Shown one piece after another: positions 30,728-60,840 of a stretch of DNA of 64,000 nucleotides. The stretch lies in the NCBI GenBank assembly GCA_041737385.1, contig JBGSRU010000002.1, forward strand, positions 461,437 to 525,436. The letters are read 5' to 3'. The DNA comes from Candidatus Saccharimonadales bacterium (lineage in GTDB: Bacteria > Patescibacteriota > Saccharimonadia > Saccharimonadales > SZUA-47). The translations under genes and the position numbers were made by a program. The notes below the pieces were generated by a model that saw nothing but the letters and a program-made list of their open reading frames with translations, had not been told where the DNA came from and did not search any database. Numbering within the stretch: position 1 is the first letter of the stretch; every line of letters starts with the position of its first letter.

Positions 30728-31990
30728 TTATATATTAATTTCAGCATCAAGTATTTCTTGTAAAAGCGAAATTATTTCATTTGGTCCAGCAGCGAGAGTA
30801 GTTGCAATAAGTTTTCTTGGTAATATATTATTGCCTTCAGGATCATCTGTATTTGCATCAACTGAGCTGTTCCAGTTTCCGCCAACTGATGCAATCGCTG
30901 CTGATATGGCTCTGGTAGCTGATACCGCAGACGATGTAGTATTGATATTATTGTCATCGTCATAAACACTTAAAACAGTCCACTGTGCGGTTAATCCCGG
31001 ATAGCCATCGCCAGCGAATACTGTACCGTCTTTAAGCTGATTATACTCACCATAATTGTCTAGCACAGGATATGTTGCTCCCGCTCCGGTGTTCCATGAT
31101 GTCGGTTCACCTGATAATTTCTTTAGAGATGAACAACACCCACCCGAACTAGCCGAACCACGAGCATCGGTAAATAAGACGAACTGAATGTCTGTTGCGC
31201 CGCTCAAATCTAATGCATCTCCAGGTCCATATACTGAGCCAAGTCGCATGCGTGCTAGTGATCCTGGCAAATGATCTTGAAAATCAGACGTAGATGAGCT
31301 GCCAGGTCCGTATCGTCTATCCCAGTTTGTGGCTGTTGTTTTATCACGAGTAAATGACACGGTTACATCGTATTTATGTTCTTGATTAAAGTTATTGGTT
31401 CCATATTGCAGGACAGCCACTTCAGCAGTTGGTGCGTTATCAATAATGTAGTTTATTGATGCGTCTACTGTGCTTTTACTCTGTAACCATTCAGATTCAC
31501 TCATAGAACCGGAATTATCCACAATAAATATAAACCGAACACTCGTATTACTGCCCGATGTATACGTTATCTTACCCTGAATTTCACGACTGTACAGAAG
31601 TTTTGCTTTGTTCTTTGTGTATACTCTACCAACACCCGCTATGTCCTGCTGGGTATTTGCTGTATTTGAAAAGCCTTTATGAATCACTTCGTATGTGATT
31701 TCATGTAGATCAGTCGTATAGAGCGTTGTTTCAGCGGTACCAAGGTAATTTAAGTCAATCTCATACTGCTCCTTGGCAAAGTCCATCGCTGATACGCTTG
31801 CTAATTGTGCTTCACGAATGAGTTCTTGGTTGAGTGTAGTCCGATATGCCTGAGTAGCAGCTACAATTGTAAGAGCACTAAACATAAAAACTATCGGTAT
31901 AAAGGTGATAATTGTTATCATCACGAATCCTTTTTCGTTCTTTTTGCTTTGTGTGCACTTTTCAGATTGGTTTGTGTATAAAAATTTCAT
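30728..31990 (-). CDS. prepilin-signal-like protein with vWA domain
   Basis: Leader MKFLYTNQSEKCTQSKKNEKG followed by FVMITIITFIPIVF (Thr, not Glu, at +5). MIDAS motif FIVDNSGSMS and a downstream LFTDA. 1-nt stop/start overlap (TAATG) with the upstream pilin gene. Confidence 0.7.
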   Translation of the reverse strand: MKFLYTNQSEKCTQSKKNEKGFVMITIITFIPIVFMFSALTIVAATQAYRTTLNQELIREAQLASVSAMDFAKEQYEIDLNYLGTAETTLYTTDLHEITYEVIHKGFSNTANTQQDIAGVGRVYTKNKAKLLYSREIQGKITYTSGSNTSVRFIFIVDNSGSMSESEWLQSKSTVDASINYIIDNAPTAEVAVLQYGTNNFNQEHKYDVTVSFTRDKTTATNWDRRYGPGSSSTSDFQDHLPGSLARMRLGSVYGPGDALDLSGATDIQFVLFTDARGSASSGGCCSSLKKLSGEPTSWNTGAGATYPVLDNYGEYNQLKDGTVFAGDGYPGLTAQWTVLSVYDDDNNINTTSSAVSATRAISAAIASVGGNWNSSVDANTDDPEGNNILPRKLIATTLAAGPNEIISLLQEILDAEINI

Positions 31991-45662: not shown

Positions 45663-46514
45663 ATGACAATTGAAGCATGGATACAAAAATCTAAGGTCCT
45701 ATTAACGGAAAAATTAGTTACCACCGCGCTACTAGACAGTGAGGTTTTACTCGCTGATATTCTTAAAAAGGATCGATCTTGGTTGCATAGCCACCCAGAA
45801 TATGTTCTGCAAAGGTCAGACCTTCGCATACTTGATGAGCAAATTACGAGGCGAGCCTTGCATGAACCTCTCGCGTATATTCGTGGCAAGCAGGAGTTTT
45901 ATGGCAGAGATTTTGTTGTTTCTAAACATACGCTGACTCCCCGTCCTGAAACCGAAATAATGGTAGAGATCTTTTTAGAGCTGACGAAAAGTGAGGCATT
46001 AAAGGAGAGTGAGAAACTACAAGTTCTAGACATAGGAACAGGTAGTGGGTGCGTTATAATTTCTGCATCCCTTGAGCTGACTCAAATCTCAAATCTCAAA
46101 TCTCAAATCTCATACCTAGGCCTAGATATTTCAATACTCGCTCTCGAAATAGCCAAAAAAAATGCACAGAAATTGAATGCAGACGTAGAGTTTATTCATT
46201 TCGACCTGATCAAAGATGATCTATCTTCAATCATTAAATATAAATCTTCAAATATCATCCTCGCTAATCTTCCCTACGTTCCCGATAATTTTGATATAAA
46301 CACTGCTGCAACTCATGAACCACCGTTTGCTATATTTGGTGGCGAAGACGGGCTTGATTTCTACAGATTACTATTTAGTAAACTTTCCGTCGCTACTAAG
46401 TATGTATTGACGGAAAGTTTGCCATTGCAGCACAAAGATTTGGCACTAATTGCAAAAGATGCTGGCTTTGCATTACAGACTACACAGGGCTTCATTCAGC
46501 TTTATACAAAATAA
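45663..46514 (+). CDS. prmC: release factor glutamine N5-methyltransferase PrmC/HemK
   Basis: Directly downstream of prfA. SAM motif VLDIGTGSGCVII and catalytic ANLPYVP (NPPY-type). Confidence 0.85.
   Translation: MTIEAWIQKSKVLLTEKLVTTALLDSEVLLADILKKDRSWLHSHPEYVLQRSDLRILDEQITRRALHEPLAYIRGKQEFYGRDFVVSKHTLTPRPETEIMVEIFLELTKSEALKESEKLQVLDIGTGSGCVIISASLELTQISNLKSQISYLGLDISILALEIAKKNAQKLNADVEFIHFDLIKDDLSSIIKYKSSNIILANLPYVPDNFDINTAATHEPPFAIFGGEDGLDFYRLLFSKLSVATKYVLTESLPLQHKDLALIAKDAGFALQTTQGFIQLYTK
46081..46112. repeat. heptanucleotide tandem repeat (CTCAAAT) x4.6 inside prmC
   Basis: ctcaaat ctcaaat ctcaaat ctcaaat ctca read directly from the sequence. Encodes TQISNLKSQIS between MTase motif I and the next strand. 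Confidence 0.95.
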
Positions 46515-59074: not shown

Positions 59075-59310
59075 GAAATCATAAGAAGTATCACCGAAGT
59101 TATCCACAAACCATACATCGTAAAGTCAAAGCCGTTTTATAGCCAATTAACCCAAAAGCTCTAGTCAGCACTATAGCCGTAAATGACTAGCCGTATATTA
59201 CCATTACTTTAAGCGCTCACCCCCGCCAACAATCTAAACCACTCTGCGAAGGTCAGACCTTTGCAGAAAATATAAATGCTGGTTGTCAAATAGGTCGCTG
59301 CTATACGGGC

Positions 59311-59922
59311 TTACTCTGCGAGTTGATGTTTGATTTCGTCTAGCGTGTTTTTGTAGTCTGCGTGGTCCTGAATGAACGAACTGTACTCTGCCGTAGATTT
59401 ATCCATCATCACCCTTTCCGGTTTTACCCAGTTCGAGAATAATTTACCTAGATACTGAGATAGACTAGAGTACTCCCACTGCATGTAGTCACGAGGATTG
59501 AGGTGAATATAGCGAGTAATGTGCTCTAGGTACGCCTCATCATCGATCAACGACGCTTTGAATACTCCCTGGAACAGATGACCTACCCTGTTATGCCTCT
59601 TGTTGTAGTAGGTTGTGTACGATCCAGAAACCTTCCTCATTAACTCTGTTATCGATGCAGTGTTTTTGTCCAGATAGAGCAGCAGATGAAAATGGTTAGG
59701 CATGAGGCAGAAGGCGTTTAGTTCAACTCGCTCGCTGTAGTTTTCATATACATTACCTCTATTGTCTTCAGATTTTTCAGGGCTTAGATACCTTTTCAGT
59801 AGATTCATAAAGACAGCATAGTCTTCTTTGTCGCTATAGATGATTTGCTTATTCACACCTCTGTTGTAGACGTGATAGAAGTGCCCTTCTCCGTATTGCT
59901 TGATTACATTTTTGCTTGGCAT
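59311..59922 (-). CDS. IS200/IS605-family Y1 (HUH) transposase, RAYT-like
   Basis: HFYHVYNRGVNKQ N-terminus, HUH motif MPNHFHLLL, Tyr helix SYTTYYNKRHNRVGHLFQGVFKA and YIHLNPRD. 203 aa. Confidence 0.8.
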   Translation of the reverse strand: MPSKNVIKQYGEGHFYHVYNRGVNKQIIYSDKEDYAVFMNLLKRYLSPEKSEDNRGNVYENYSERVELNAFCLMPNHFHLLLYLDKNTASITELMRKVSGSYTTYYNKRHNRVGHLFQGVFKASLIDDEAYLEHITRYIHLNPRDYMQWEYSSLSQYLGKLFSNWVKPERVMMDKSTAEYSSFIQDHADYKNTLDEIKHQLAE

Positions 59923-59952: not shown

Positions 59953-60019
59953 TGCAAAGGTCAGACCTCCGCGACTAAAAATAGGACAAATAACACCTTG
60001 CGGAGGTCTGACCTTTGCA
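59953..60019. repeat. perfect 20-bp inverted repeat (REP doublet) with 27-nt spacer
   Basis: tgcaaaggtcagacctccgc ... gcggaggtctgacctttgca. Each arm contains the near-palindromic core aggtc-n-gacct. Confidence 0.9.
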
Positions 60020-60082
60020 GATAAGATGGGGCTAAGTTAAGGAGGTTTTGTTAATTGTTGTGGGGGTGGGGTTAGCTTAGGG

Positions 60083-60220
60083 TTATTGGAGGATTTGGTA
60101 GTCAAAGGTGTAGATTGTGTTGGCTGTTGGGGTGTCTACGGAAGTGGATTGTGAAGCCTGTAGTTGTGGTTTCCACAAAGTATCTGACGGTAGCGCTGTT
60201 TATGCCTTTTGGCGTTAGAG
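60083..60220 (-). pseudogene. decayed duplicate of the 3' end of the tail-fibre gene
   Basis: The minus strand translates to LTPKGINSATVRYFVETTTTGFTIHF, then a frameshift near 60140-60146, then (T)SVDTPTANTIYTFDYQILQ-stop. The intact gene end reads LTPLTAEAATLDYFVTRNVNGFKINFTSAPSATTTYSFDYQILQ-stop. DNA next to the stop is near-identical (tta[c/t]tggaggatttggtagtcaaag). Confidence 0.75.
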
Positions 60221-60487
60221 CTAGTAGACTTGGCTATGGGTGCCAATGTCTAAGAATATGAAAGTATCGTCTGTTTCTTTATATATTATCCTTATGTCTC
60301 CCGATATTGAAAAAGCTCGCAAGCCTGACTTTTTGCCTATAAGCGCGTGGTCGTTGATTGGGTTACCCCTTTCTCCATTTAAAAATATTCTTACTCGTTC
60401 TTCGAATTGTTTTTGTATCTTTGGATTTCTAGCAACTCGAGACAAATAGTTCTTTGTGAACTTTTTATCTCTTTGTATGTTTTTCAT
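60221..60487 (-). CDS. type II toxin, RelE/YafQ (mRNA interferase) family
   Basis: 88 aa. KFTKNY...NDHALIGKKSGLRAFSISGDIRIIYKETDDTFIFLDIGTHSQVY fits the RelE/YafQ C-terminal pattern (H.L.G....R....D.R.iY.......l..iG.Hs.vY). 4-nt overlap with the upstream antitoxin. Confidence 0.8.
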   Translation of the reverse strand: MKNIQRDKKFTKNYLSRVARNPKIQKQFEERVRIFLNGERGNPINDHALIGKKSGLRAFSISGDIRIIYKETDDTFIFLDIGTHSQVY

Positions 60488-60786
60488 AATTCTCTTAAGT
60501 CAGCTAGAAATTCTTCTGGATCGGTATAAGTCTTCACTTTGCCGGCTTTTAAGTCTTTTTCGAACCCTTCTAGTTGTTTCATGTAGCGAGCTTCGGCTTC
60601 AGGGCTTAATTTTCGTTCATCTGAATTAGTAAGGTTGAACTGCAAATTATTATTCAACACCGTGCTGTACATAACTCTTGTGAAATCCTGTACGGAACTA
60701 AAGCCCATAGACTTTGCATGTTTTTCTACCCTATCGCGCAAGGTCTTATCTAGCGGTATTTGAAGTTTAACGGTTGAATCACTCAT
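60484..60786 (-). CDS. type II antitoxin (RelB/DinJ-like, ribbon-helix-helix N-terminus)
   Basis: 100 aa. N-terminal VKLQIPLDKTLRDRVEKHAKSMGFSSVQDF is RHH-like. Position and ATGA coupling to the toxin gene support the call. Confidence 0.7.
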   Translation of the reverse strand: MSDSTVKLQIPLDKTLRDRVEKHAKSMGFSSVQDFTRVMYSTVLNNNLQFNLTNSDERKLSPEAEARYMKQLEGFEKDLKAGKVKTYTDPEEFLADLREL

Positions 60787-60792
60787 GACTAC

Positions 60793-60821
60793 AGAGTATC
60801 AAAGTGGTTAAAGTATGTCAA
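60793..60821 (-). promoter_or_regulatory. promoter of the TA cassette (leaderless transcript predicted)
   Basis: Minus strand reads TTGACA (60821-60816), a 17-nt spacer, then TACTCT (60798-60793). The -10 box ends 6 nt before the antitoxin ATG at 60786. Confidence 0.5.
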
Positions 60822-60840
60822 TATAATACTTTATTGAGGG

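What the first reader, a model, noticed from the sequence alone, without database searches (positions are those of the whole stretch)
60083..60840. relBE-like toxin-antitoxin cassette sitting exactly between a tail-fibre gene and a decayed copy of that gene's 3' end
Seen: the last ~45 codons plus 5-6 nt beyond the stop of the tail-fibre gene (from 60841 upward) recur in the same orientation at 60083-60220. The intact end reads LTPLTAEAATLDYFVTRNVNGFKINFTSAPSATTTYSFDYQILQ-stop. The copy reads LTPKGINSATVRYFVETTTTGFTIHF, then a frameshift, then SVDTPTANTIYTFDYQILQ-stop. The stop-proximal ~45 nt are nearly identical, and divergence increases further in. The 620 bp between the two copies is exactly the TA cassette with its own TTGACA-17-TACTCT promoter, and the toxin's last codons abut the upstream limit of the copy. 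Inference, option (a): a second tail-fibre paralogue, or an alternative C-terminal (receptor-binding) cassette, was overwritten by the TA module. Option (b): the TA module inserted by recombination and duplicated the target. Either way, an addiction module is physically locked to the variable receptor-binding end of an adhesin gene, next to a RAYT/REP element. Mismatches are not adenine-specific, so this is not a DGR template/variable pair.
Basis: partly seen in the sequence, partly recalled or inferred. Interest (0 to 1): 0.6.

Follow-up and report, generated by a model that had tools for sequence, protein, structure and literature searches.

The report
Toxin-antitoxin cassette beside displaced fibre-gene tail
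A small toxin-antitoxin gene pair was captured just after the stop codon of a giant surface-fibre gene in a probable Saccharibacteria chromosome, pushing an older version of the gene's last 46 codons downstream as a dead remnant; related genomes show this is a recurrent recombination scar, not a new kind of system.

Summary
The stretch 60083-60220 is a frameshifted, promoterless copy of the last 46 codons of the fibre gene that ends at 60841. A 601-bp YafQ/RelE-type toxin-antitoxin cassette with its own promoter fills the gap between them.

The copy is not a decayed duplicate of the neighbour's present end. Its body belongs to a different allelic type of the C-terminal module. Only the last ~54 nt, plus 5 nt past the stop, match the neighbour.

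The same toxin/remnant junction occurs in two other divergent metagenomic lineages (L006, L011). In both lineages where the resident fibre end is available, the window and L006, the remnant's tail matches it. The cassette also occurs in many unrelated contexts without a remnant.

An independent tail duplication with different cargo (L036) and a second remnant in L011 mark the fibre's 3' end as a recombination hot spot.

Best reading: the cassette was captured once by homology-assisted illegitimate recombination, gene conversion then acted between the direct repeats, and the fibre tip module was later swapped. Interest is moderate; this is a variant of known phenomena.

The parts
60841..63948 (-). 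3' part of a giant surface-fibre gene. The ORF runs off the window; it is at least 1736 aa in Logan contig L001.
   Evidence: ORF list. L001 gene 3-5213 touches the contig end. Pfam Peptidase_S74 E=2.5e-10. Chromosomal context: parA/parB, signal peptidase, secA, RF-1.
61474..61641 (-). S74 intramolecular-chaperone (self-cleaving) domain. The putative Ser/Lys dyad lies in SSAKYKENI.
   Evidence: Pfam residues 770-825 of the 1035-aa ORF. The AF2 model matches the MyRF ICA domain 7dc3. Phage tail proteins match only this part. The dyad is read from the sequence and not tested.
60844..61155 (-). C-terminal beta-sandwich of the fibre. Its last ~46-55 codons form an exchangeable allelic module; here it is type A (...LTPLTAEAATLDYFVTRNVNGFKINF...FDYQILQ).
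   Evidence: AF2 pLDDT is 80-90 over the last 60 residues. Weak Foldseek similarity to H-type lectins 2ce6, 2ccv and 4q56, E 0.04-0.08. Allelic types are visible in alignment A3. L037 versus L004 is mosaic.
60837..60890 (.). Left direct repeat: the last 16 codons, the stop and 4-5 nt of the intact fibre gene.
   Evidence: the repeat finder family D6, 89% over 54 nt.
60793..60821 (-). TA promoter: -35 TTGACA (60821-60816), a 17-nt spacer containing TG, -10 TACTCT (60798-60793). The ATG lies 6 nt downstream, so the mRNA is probably leaderless.
   Evidence: Sequence. TTGACAT...TTTGATAC(TCT/CAT/TAT) is conserved upstream of the antitoxin in L006, L010, L020, L024 and L033. The generic scan did not list it because the -10 matches TATAAT at only 3 of 6 positions.
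60484..60786 (-). Antitoxin, 100 aa. Ribbon-helix-helix-like N-terminus and helical C-terminus. It belongs to no curated family.
   Evidence: No Pfam or NCBIfam hit. There are 54 homologues, always paired with the toxin where context was read. AF2 gives a strand-helix-helix plus two helices. The top Foldseek hits are ParD2, DinJ, Arc and CopG, but E>=0.5. JGI names P0034 and P0039 'antitoxin component of RelBE/YafQ-DinJ'.
60221..60487 (-). Toxin, 88 aa, YafQ/RelE-type mRNA interferase. It overlaps the antitoxin by 4 nt (ATGA). Its TAG stop coincides with fibre-derived sequence.
   Evidence: Pfam YafQ_toxin 42.1 bits (cut-off 30). NCBIfam RelE_StbE 34.1 bits (cut-off 27.9). Nearest solved structure is HP0894, then YafQ. 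Stop-codon comparison across loci.
60133..60220 (-). Remnant body: non-coding relic of a type-B fibre tip (LALTPKGINSATVRYFVETTTTGFTIHF) with a 1-nt insertion near 60141.
   Evidence: Amino-acid identity is 12/28 to the resident gene against 17-19/28 to P0001, P0002, P0003, P0010 and P0015. Nucleotide identity is 48% against 66% to L003. tblastn gives 68% to L003 against 49% to the resident gene.
60079..60132 (.). Remnant tail, the right direct repeat: the last 16 codons, TAA and 4-5 nt, homogenised with the resident gene's tail.
   Evidence: 89% over 54 nt. 82% over the last 60 alignment columns to the resident gene against at most 72% to any other fibre end.
59953..60019 (.). Inverted pair of REP elements (a 20-nt perfect inverted repeat).
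   Evidence: the repeat finder I2. Pattern search finds 5 matches in the window against 0.01 expected.
59311..59922 (-). REP-associated tyrosine transposase (RAYT).
   Evidence: Pfam Y1_Tnp 40.5 bits (cut-off 23). NCBIfam REP_Tyr_transpos 51 bits, below its cut-off of 80. Only 42-48% identical to the RAYTs of L006 and L003.
59243..59265 (.). REP hairpin on the other side of the RAYT gene.
   Evidence: the repeat finder I1/I3 and D5.

Best explanation
A self-contained ~600-bp type II toxin-antitoxin cassette runs from its -35 hexamer to the toxin's last codon. It encodes a YafQ/RelE-like toxin and a ribbon-helix-helix-like antitoxin.

The cassette became joined to the 3' end of a giant S74-domain surface-fibre gene by recombination. 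One side used fibre-gene homology. The other side was an illegitimate join directly after the toxin's last sense codon, 46 codons before the fibre's stop. The fibre gene kept a complete end. The other copy of the last 138 nt was left downstream as a non-coding remnant.

This happened once, in an ancestor or donor shared with at least two other lineages. Since then three things have occurred:
- The junction-proximal part of the remnant has decayed (frameshift here, deletions elsewhere).
- Its stop-proximal part has been repeatedly overwritten from the resident fibre gene by gene conversion between the direct repeats.
- The resident gene's last ~50-codon tip module has been exchanged for another allele. 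In this genome the remnant therefore preserves the previous type-B tip, while the live gene carries type A.

The TA pair is a hitch-hiker. It probably persists because repeat-mediated deletion would remove the antitoxin gene.

What is shown: the anatomy, the allele assignment, the shared junction, the within-genome similarity of tails, and the recurrence with other cargo. What is inferred: the recombination mechanism, the order of events, and the stabilising role of the TA.
For: **1. The repeat is real and highly significant**.

**2. The remnant is a mosaic.**
- The body is 48% identical in nt to the resident gene and 66% to type-B L003.
- The tail is 82-89% identical to the resident gene and at most 72% to any other fibre end.

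**3. The cassette limits are defined by comparison.**
- Homology to TA loci in unrelated contexts spans 60821-60223 only: L007 after gyrBA and L008 after a GtrA gene.
- The promoter is conserved in every context read.

**4. The architecture is shared with L006.**
- Homology to L006 is 75% over 749 nt and runs through the TA and the remnant down to 60083.
- L006 reads: fibre end, REP-RAYT-REP, TA, remnant.

**5. L011 has the TA followed by a remnant with the same junction stub**.

**6. The stop codon marks the junction.**
- All three remnant-bearing loci end the toxin with TAG.
- This coincides with aTAGct of type-B fibres.
- Thirteen of 15 other loci use TAA or TGA.

**7. Evolution is concerted.**
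- In L006 the remnant is 97% identical over 99 nt to L006's own fibre end.
- The remnants of the window and L006 are only 49-67% identical to each other.
- The TA genes of the same two lineages are 75% identical.

**8. The site is a hot spot.**
- L036 has an independent 75-nt remnant (83%) behind a 117-aa coiled-coil ORF.
- L011 has a second short remnant after a REP-like hairpin.
- The tail motif occurs 17 times, only at fibre ends or remnants, and 0 times in a reversed-sequence control.

**9. The tip is a module.** L037 and L004 share a 226-nt block at 92% identity. They then drop to about 50% over the last ~165 nt and have different downstream genes.

**10. Sites without a remnant exist:** L002, L003, L004 and L037.
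Against: - The related loci are short metagenomic contigs of unknown phylogenetic position. Vertical inheritance and horizontal transfer of the TA-plus-remnant block therefore cannot be separated.
- The antitoxin tree (100 aa, NJ) does not clearly group all remnant-bearing loci apart from remnant-free ones.
- In the window, gene conversion rests on about 54 nt. Part of that similarity could be protein-level conservation of the Y-x-F-D-Y-x-I-x-Q motif. Against this, synonymous sites and 4-5 post-stop bases also agree.
- The alternative order of events is not excluded: a type-A tip could have arrived together with the TA.
- No toxicity, transcription or recombination was measured.
Confidence: 0.6

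Rival explanations
1. Recombinase-free or recombinase-driven mobile cassette. The TA plus a fibre-tail fragment circulates as a unit, either as a circle formed by repeat-by-repeat recombination or as a RAYT-mobilised segment. It inserts repeatedly into fibre 3' ends by Campbell-type single crossover and regenerates the direct repeats each time.
For: - Campbell integration of a circle carrying 143 bp of fibre tail would produce exactly this anatomy, with the repeat limits equal to the carried segment.
- The junction stub is the same in three lineages whose fibre tips differ: type B with an A-like tail, a type-B variant, and type C.
- A RAYT gene lies beside the structure in the window and inside the repeats in L006.
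- The cassette is found in many contexts.
Against: - A single reciprocal crossover cannot by itself give a resident gene that is type A throughout and a remnant with an A-like tail. Conversion is still needed.
- The RAYTs of the window and L006 are only 42% identical, with different REPs, and sit at different positions.
- No integrase or other recombinase lies within the repeat-bounded segment here.
- TA copies elsewhere carry no fibre fragment.
Confidence: 0.15
2. Programmed tip variation. The remnant is a silent cassette kept as a donor for switching the fibre's C-terminal tip, in the manner of pilE/pilS, and the TA is selected because it prevents loss of the reservoir.
For: - Sequence is demonstrably exchanged between remnant and live gene.
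- The remnant length (46 codons) roughly equals the exchangeable tip module seen in L037 versus L004.
- Several alleles of the tip exist.
Against: - There is only one partial copy per locus.
- The copy is frameshifted here, and its proximal part carries deletions in L006 and L011.
- In L006, remnant and gene are identical, so there is nothing to switch.
- Where direction can be inferred, transfer runs from gene to remnant.
- The repeats are direct, so reciprocal exchange would delete the TA.
Confidence: 0.1
3. One reading: a second tandem fibre paralogue, or a tandem alternative C-terminal exon-like cassette, was almost entirely overwritten by the TA module.
For: - The remnant is a different allelic type from the neighbouring gene.
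- Giant fibre-like genes are tandem in this region: a 2124-aa ORF lies downstream.
Against: - No related locus shows a second gene with this C-terminal module directly downstream. L002, L003, L004 and L037 each have a single tail motif.
- The identical junction in L006 and L011 sits at the toxin's last codon, with no other paralogue relics.
- L036 shows that the same kind of remnant arises with a 549-bp repeat spacing and a small cargo gene.
Confidence: 0.08
4. Assembly artefact: a repeat-induced chimera in a metagenome-assembled genome.
For: The source is probably a MAG, and the repeats could in principle mislead assemblers.
Against: - An independent Logan assembly reproduces 1101 nt at 100% identity.
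- The repeat is only 54 nt at 89%, shorter than a read.
- The same architecture appears in independent samples (L005/L006, L011, L036).
Confidence: 0.02

Closest known systems
DinJ-YafQ / RelBE type II toxin-antitoxin modules (RelE/ParE superfamily; nearest solved toxin H. pylori HP0894)
   Same: - The antitoxin gene comes first and overlaps the toxin gene by 4 nt.
- The 88-aa toxin passes the Pfam YafQ_toxin and NCBIfam RelE_StbE cut-offs.
- The module has its own sigma-70-like promoter.
- The antitoxin has a predicted ribbon-helix-helix-like N-terminus.
   Different: - The antitoxin matches no curated family.
- The toxin misses the strict YafQ subfamily cut-off: 38.5 bits against 87.25.
- The residue aligned with the His of HP0894's RECHIKPD is Ser.
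- Homologues whose source is named come mainly from Saccharibacteria.
Gene 3'-end displacement by integrating elements that carry a replacement end (icd with e14 or phage 21; tRNA- and tmRNA-targeting islands). Comparison from general knowledge.
   Same: An intact gene end, then inserted DNA, then a displaced non-functional copy of the gene's 3' end in direct orientation.
   Different: - No integrase or att core is present.
- The inserted segment is only about 600 bp.
- The junction looks illegitimate, with microhomology at TA(G).
- The repeats undergo ongoing homogenisation.
Homology-facilitated illegitimate recombination in naturally transformable bacteria (de Vries and Wackernagel-type events). 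Comparison from general knowledge.
   Same: A one-sided homologous anchor (the fibre gene) plus a microhomology join at the other end would explain cargo of varied content landing at the same gene end (TA; the L036 ORF; the REP in L011).
   Different: - Classical HFIR usually deletes recipient DNA rather than duplicating it.
- Transformation and the recombination pathway are untested for this organism.
Orphan C-terminal tips downstream of rhs / cdiA polymorphic toxin genes. Comparison from general knowledge.
   Same: A large surface protein with a modular, allelic C-terminal tip; displaced tip fragments accumulate downstream (two in L011).
   Different: - The tip here is a lectin-like beta-sandwich behind an S74 chaperone domain, not a toxin domain.
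- No immunity gene is paired with the tip.
- No PxxxxDPxGL or VENN demarcation motif is present.
Phage tail-fibre / endosialidase proteins with a C-terminal S74 intramolecular chaperone
   Same: An S74 domain with a plausible Ser/Lys dyad, followed by a long helix. Streptomyces phage minor tail proteins match this part.
   Different: - The gene is chromosomal and sits next to parAB.
- It carries about 100 extra residues after the chaperone.
- That extra module, which is the part duplicated here, was found in no phage record or viral contig.

Membership tests
Type II TA, YafQ/RelE-type toxin | The toxin matches the family model above the curated cut-off. | tested here: met
   Pfam PF15738 42.1 bits against 30. 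NCBIfam TIGR02385 RelE_StbE 34.1 against 27.9. The strict YafQ subfamily TIGR00053 is not reached: 38.5 against 87.25.
Type II TA, YafQ/RelE-type toxin | A small antitoxin gene lies immediately upstream, translationally coupled, and co-occurs across genomes. | tested here: met
   There is a 4-nt overlap at 60484-60487. The pair is adjacent in every locus with enough sequence.
Type II TA, YafQ/RelE-type toxin | The antitoxin has a DNA-binding fold (RHH, as in DinJ/RelB) and a toxin-binding C-terminus. | tested here: inconclusive
   No HMM match. The AF2 topology is strand-helix-helix plus two helices, pLDDT 72. RHH proteins top the Foldseek list, but E>=0.5.
Type II TA, YafQ/RelE-type toxin | The toxin arrests growth by ribosome-dependent mRNA cleavage, and the antitoxin neutralises it and autoregulates the promoter. 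| not testable with these tools
   This needs expression and cleavage assays. The only support here is promoter conservation across contexts.
Integrase-mediated insertion with a replacement 3' end (icd/e14 type) | A site-specific recombinase is encoded within the inserted segment, and an identical att core lies at both ends. | tested here: not met
   The segment between the repeats holds only the TA pair. The repeats are 89% identical with no sharp identical core. The RAYT lies outside the repeats here.
Diversity-generating retroelement TR/VR pair | Mismatches are confined to template adenines, and a reverse transcriptase is nearby. | tested here: not met
   The six mismatches in the 54-nt repeat are T/C, G/C, A/G, G/T, T/G and T/A. 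The body differs by more than 50%. No reverse transcriptase is among the neighbouring genes. The rest of the window was not scanned for one.
rhs/cdi-type orphan toxin tips | The C-terminal tip is a toxin domain paired with an immunity gene behind a conserved demarcation motif. | tested here: not met
   The tip model is a beta-sandwich with weak H-type-lectin similarity. The downstream genes are a TA pair, a coiled-coil ORF or nothing. No demarcation motif appears in alignment A3.
REP/RAYT | A Y1 HUH transposase gene is flanked by inverted REP hairpins that also occur elsewhere in the genome. | tested here: met
   Y1_Tnp 40.5 bits. REP copies lie at 59246, 59954, 60000 and 45809 against 0.01 expected. 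The NCBIfam equivalog cut-off is not reached: 51 against 80.
S74 intramolecular-chaperone fibre | A Peptidase_S74 domain with a Ser/Lys dyad near the C-terminus, which self-cleaves after trimerisation. | tested here: inconclusive
   The domain is present and the fold matches the MyRF ICA domain. S-x4-K can be read in SSAKYKENI. Cleavage is not testable here, and the region C-terminal to the domain is about 100 residues longer than usual.

The most novel reading that the evidence does not exclude
The fibre-tail fragment is not just a scar. It serves as the homology arm of a recombinase-free mobile unit. Cargo such as this TA pair travels between Saccharibacteria by natural transformation together with a fibre tip module. 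It integrates at the fibre's 3' end and leaves or renews the direct repeats. The TA then punishes repeat-mediated loss. On this reading the remnants form an archive, and an occasional donor, of host-attachment tip alleles.
Probability: 0.15. Interest if true: 0.65.

Novelty: new variant of a known kind. Interest (0 to 1): 0.42.

Why it matters
- **Locus under exchange.** The 3' end of a giant, phage-fibre-like surface protein in ultrasmall episymbiotic bacteria is a recurrent landing site for foreign DNA. Its last ~50 codons are exchanged as a module. This points to strong diversifying pressure on that tip and to frequent homologous plus illegitimate recombination in these genomes.
- **How a TA spreads.** The locus gives a concrete, datable example of how a chromosomal TA cassette is captured and then persists between direct repeats.
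- **Annotation.** The remnant should be marked as a pseudogene fragment. The 100-aa antitoxin family deserves a model, since curated libraries miss it.

Tried and rejected
- **DGR reading.** Rejected on the mismatch spectrum.
- **Known RNA in the remnant or REP region.** Only sub-threshold miRNA-model noise on the REP hairpin.
- **Terminator in the remnant.** None predicted.
- **Prophage or tailocin context.** Rejected. The neighbours are parAB, signal peptidase, LytR, secA and RF-1. No viral contig encodes the tip domain. Phage records match only the S74 part.
- **Plasmid origin of the TA.** No blastn match in PLSDB.
- **General rule that this TA cassette always duplicates its target.**
  - Tested on 17 loci by local alignment of the flanks. 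Only the window and L020 are significant.
  - The L020 repeat is a dispersed ~45-65-nt element with three copies in a TA island. That is a different phenomenon.
  - It is neither a tRNA nor an Rfam family.
- **Antitoxin phylogeny.** A 100-aa NJ tree was too weak to settle single origin against transfer.
- **Literature.** Searches found no description of this arrangement.
- **Source genome.** Its NCBI accession could not be recovered. The look-up gives only 'NCBI, 531,481-nt contig'.
Full report
**Observation**

All relevant genes lie on the minus strand.
- A large ORF runs off the window and ends at 60841. It continues to at least 1736 aa in an independent Logan contig (L001).
- Next come a 100-aa ORF (60786-60484) and an 88-aa ORF (60487-60221), which overlap by 4 nt.
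- Next is a 138-nt stretch (60220-60083) resembling the large ORF's last 46 codons.
- Then follow a perfect 20-nt inverted REP pair (59953-60019), a RAYT gene (59922-59311), another REP hairpin (59243-59265) and a 2124-aa ORF.

The repeat is well supported.
- It is 54 nt at 89% identity (60079-60132 versus 60837-60890).
- blastn gives 80.5% over 82 nt, E=3.6e-15 against the whole window. A local alignment of the flanks scores z=28.6 against shuffles.
- The repeat includes TAACCCT, so it extends 4-5 nt past the stop.
- L001 is 100% identical over 1101 nt here, so this is not an assembly quirk.

**The genes**

*Toxin and antitoxin.*
- The 88-aa protein passes Pfam YafQ_toxin (42.1 bits against 30) and NCBIfam RelE_StbE (34.1 against 27.9). 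It does not reach the strict YafQ subfamily cut-off. Its nearest solved relatives are H. pylori HP0894 and YafQ.
- The 100-aa partner matches no Pfam or NCBIfam model, even when 33 homologues are scanned individually.
- Its AF2 model (pLDDT 72) is strand-helix-helix plus two helices. RHH proteins (ParD2, DinJ, Arc, CopG) head a non-significant Foldseek list.
- The TTGACA-17-TACTCT site (60821-60793) was missed by the generic scan, because its -10 matches TATAAT at only 3 of 6 positions. It is nevertheless conserved upstream of the antitoxin in every context read.
- The ATG lies 6 nt after the -10, so the mRNA is probably leaderless.

*The 'tail-fibre' gene.*
- It has a Peptidase_S74 domain whose model resembles the MyRF intramolecular-chaperone domain.
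- A long helix follows, then a beta-sandwich with weak H-type-lectin similarity.
- Phage records match only the S74 part. No viral contig encodes the terminal module.
- The neighbourhood is chromosomal: parA, parB, signal peptidase, LytR, RF-1 and secA.
- Named homologues come from Saccharimonadales and Saccharibacteria MAGs. The organism assignment is therefore an inference.

**The remnant is not a copy of the neighbour's present end**

- Twenty-eight homologues of the last 279 aa show several allelic forms of the last ~46 residues.
- The resident gene is type A (LTPLTAEAATLDYFVTRNVNGFKINF), like P0004 and P0005.
- The remnant's body (LTPKGINSATVRYFVETTTTGFTIHF) is type B. It matches 17-19 of 28 residues in P0001, P0002, P0003, P0010 and P0015, against 12 of 28 in the resident gene.
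- tblastn gives 68% to L003 against 49% to the resident gene.
- At nucleotide level the body is 48% identical to the resident gene and 66% to L003. The last 60 alignment columns are 82% identical to the resident gene and at most 72% to any other fibre end.
- Within the final codons, seven of the eight that encode the same amino acid use the same codon in the two window copies, and the post-stop bases agree. The type-A orthologues L002 and L004 differ from the resident gene at about half of these codons.
- The remnant is therefore a mosaic: an old type-B body with a tail shared specifically with the gene next door.

**The cassette and its junction elsewhere**

*Where the cassette occurs.*
- The antitoxin has 54 homologues. 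Twenty further loci came from metagenome and genome scans, and more from exact look-ups.
- In unrelated contexts, homology to the window stops at the -35 hexamer and at the toxin stop (60821-60223), and no fibre motif is present. These contexts are: after gyrBA (L007), after a GtrA gene (L008), between map and ftsA-like genes (L010), after MazG/NUDIX (L024) and after a Phd/ParE pair (L029).

*L006 (also seen as L005 and L009; antitoxin 81% identical).*
- Homology is 75% over 749 nt and runs on through the remnant to its stop.
- The locus reads: fibre end, REP, RAYT, REP, promoter, antitoxin, toxin, remnant.
- The L006 remnant is 97% identical over 99 nt to L006's own fibre end.

*L011 (antitoxin 70% identical).*
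- The toxin is followed by a remnant of a third tip type, resembling P0008.
- Then come a C-rich spacer and a REP-like hairpin resembling the window's REP, and then a second 15-codon remnant.

*The junction.*
- The bases just after the toxin stop align among the window, L006 and L011, with progressively larger deletions.
- All three use TAG as the toxin stop. This coincides with aTAGct (Ile-Ala) of type-B fibres.
- Thirteen of 15 remnant-free loci use TAA or TGA.
- The join therefore lies right after the Tyr88 codon, and the fibre DNA supplies the stop. This shared derived feature argues for one origin of the junction.

**Concerted evolution**

- The window and L006 remnants are only 49% (body) and 67% (tail) identical to each other, less than their TA genes (75%).
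- Yet each tail matches its own genome's fibre end.
- Purifying selection on the remnant cannot explain this pattern. Non-reciprocal exchange between the direct repeats can.

**The fibre's 3' end is a hot spot**

- L036 (a type-B fibre, P0003) has a 117-aa coiled-coil ORF directly after the stop. A 75-nt remnant follows, 83% identical to the gene's last 75 nt. This is a different cargo and a different junction.
- L011's second remnant is a third junction.
- The tail motif [FY][DNQ]Y.[IV][ILMV][QE] occurs 17 times in about 250 kb read in six frames. Every occurrence is at a fibre end or a remnant, and a reversed-sequence control gives none.
- L002, L003, L004 and L037 have a single fibre end and no remnant. 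L003 is syntenic with the window down to RAYT, the giant protein, parAB and signal peptidase.
- L033/L032 place the TA after a more distant fibre-like end, with a truncated toxin and no remnant.
- L037 and L004 share 226 nt at 92% identity, then fall to about 50% for the last ~165 nt and have different downstream genes. The tip and whatever follows it are exchanged together.

**Mechanism (inferred)**

- Incoming DNA with fibre homology on one side and no homology on the other is integrated by a homologous crossover in the fibre plus an illegitimate join. The microhomology here is TA(G), with CCAAG a few bases upstream.
- When that join lands inside the recipient's own fibre tail, the old tail is retained downstream.
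- A Campbell-type integration of a circular 'tail plus cargo' fragment would give the same anatomy and cannot be excluded.
- The TA was such a cargo, captured once. It is then expected to resist repeat-mediated deletion, because loss of the unstable antitoxin frees the toxin. This follows from established TA biology and was not tested here.
- In the window, either the live gene later changed from type B to type A, or type A arrived with the TA. A conversion tract of at least 54 nt then equalised the tails.

**What it is not**

- It is not a DGR pair, on the mismatch spectrum.
- It is not an integrase-borne island: no recombinase lies within the repeats.
- It is not an rhs/cdi orphan-toxin array: the tip is lectin-like and no immunity gene is present.
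- It is not a known RNA.
- The RAYTs next to the structure are only 42-48% identical between loci, have different REPs and sit at different positions. Their role is unproven.

**Caveat on 'receptor-binding end'**

- The exchangeable module lies C-terminal to an S74 domain with a plausible Ser/Lys dyad (SSAKYKENI).
- In characterised S74 proteins, everything downstream of the cleavage site is released after folding (general knowledge).
- Whether this tip stays on the fibre is therefore unknown.

**Verdict**

- The feature is a real, comparatively documented recombination scar with a hitch-hiking TA module. It is a variant of known phenomena and of moderate interest.

Noticed in passing
L036 1450-2073: An independent tail duplication at a related fibre gene. 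The stop is at 1525, a 117-aa coiled-coil ORF lies at 1571-1924, and a 75-nt remnant at 1999-2073 is 83% identical to the gene's last 75 nt. No TA is involved.
   Followed up: partly
L011 572-810: Two successive fibre-tail remnants follow the toxin. The first is a type-C remnant directly after the stop. Then come a C-rich spacer and a REP-like hairpin resembling the window's REP, and then a 15-codon remnant (DEENTSYSFDYIVMQ*).
   Followed up: partly
L037 640-865 versus L004 132-357: Two related fibre genes share a 226-nt block at 92% identity flanked by regions at about 50%. They have different downstream genes, which indicates modular exchange of the last ~55 codons.
   Followed up: partly
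L020 3887-3929, 4578-4620, 6220-6248 (same region as L026): Three copies of a ~45-65-nt repeat (TGGTGACCC...TCGAATTGGAAGG) bracket successive TA modules in a TA island, an arrangement reminiscent of cassette arrays. The repeat is neither a tRNA nor an Rfam family.
   Followed up: partly
window 60787-60798: The antitoxin ATG lies only 6 nt downstream of the -10 hexamer, with no Shine-Dalgarno sequence. The spacing is equally short in L006 and L033, which suggests a leaderless TA mRNA.
   Followed up: partly
window 30728-31990 (-): A 420-aa ORF with a weak VWA match contains a stretch (31310-31717) with faint similarity to the fibre's C-terminal region (tblastn 27% over 139 aa, E=3e-4).
   Followed up: no
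window 45809-45827: A further REP copy (1 mismatch) lies inside the mechanically called ORF 45663-46514.
   Followed up: no
L033 266-753 and L032 208-700: A TA homologue (antitoxin 73% identical) sits between a distant fibre-like C-terminus (...GKTYVFTYFIVE*) and a giant protein gene. Its toxin is truncated to 62 aa, so it is effectively an antitoxin-only relic.
   Followed up: partly
window 61639-61641 and 60844-61155: The variable lectin-like tip lies downstream of the putative S74 self-cleavage serine. It may therefore be released with the chaperone fragment rather than displayed on the fibre.
   Followed up: no
window 62000-64000: G+C rises to 0.515 and the fibre gene shows Gly-rich repeats with about 75-78-nt periodicity. 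GC skew flips to +0.17 at 60-62 kb.
   Followed up: no
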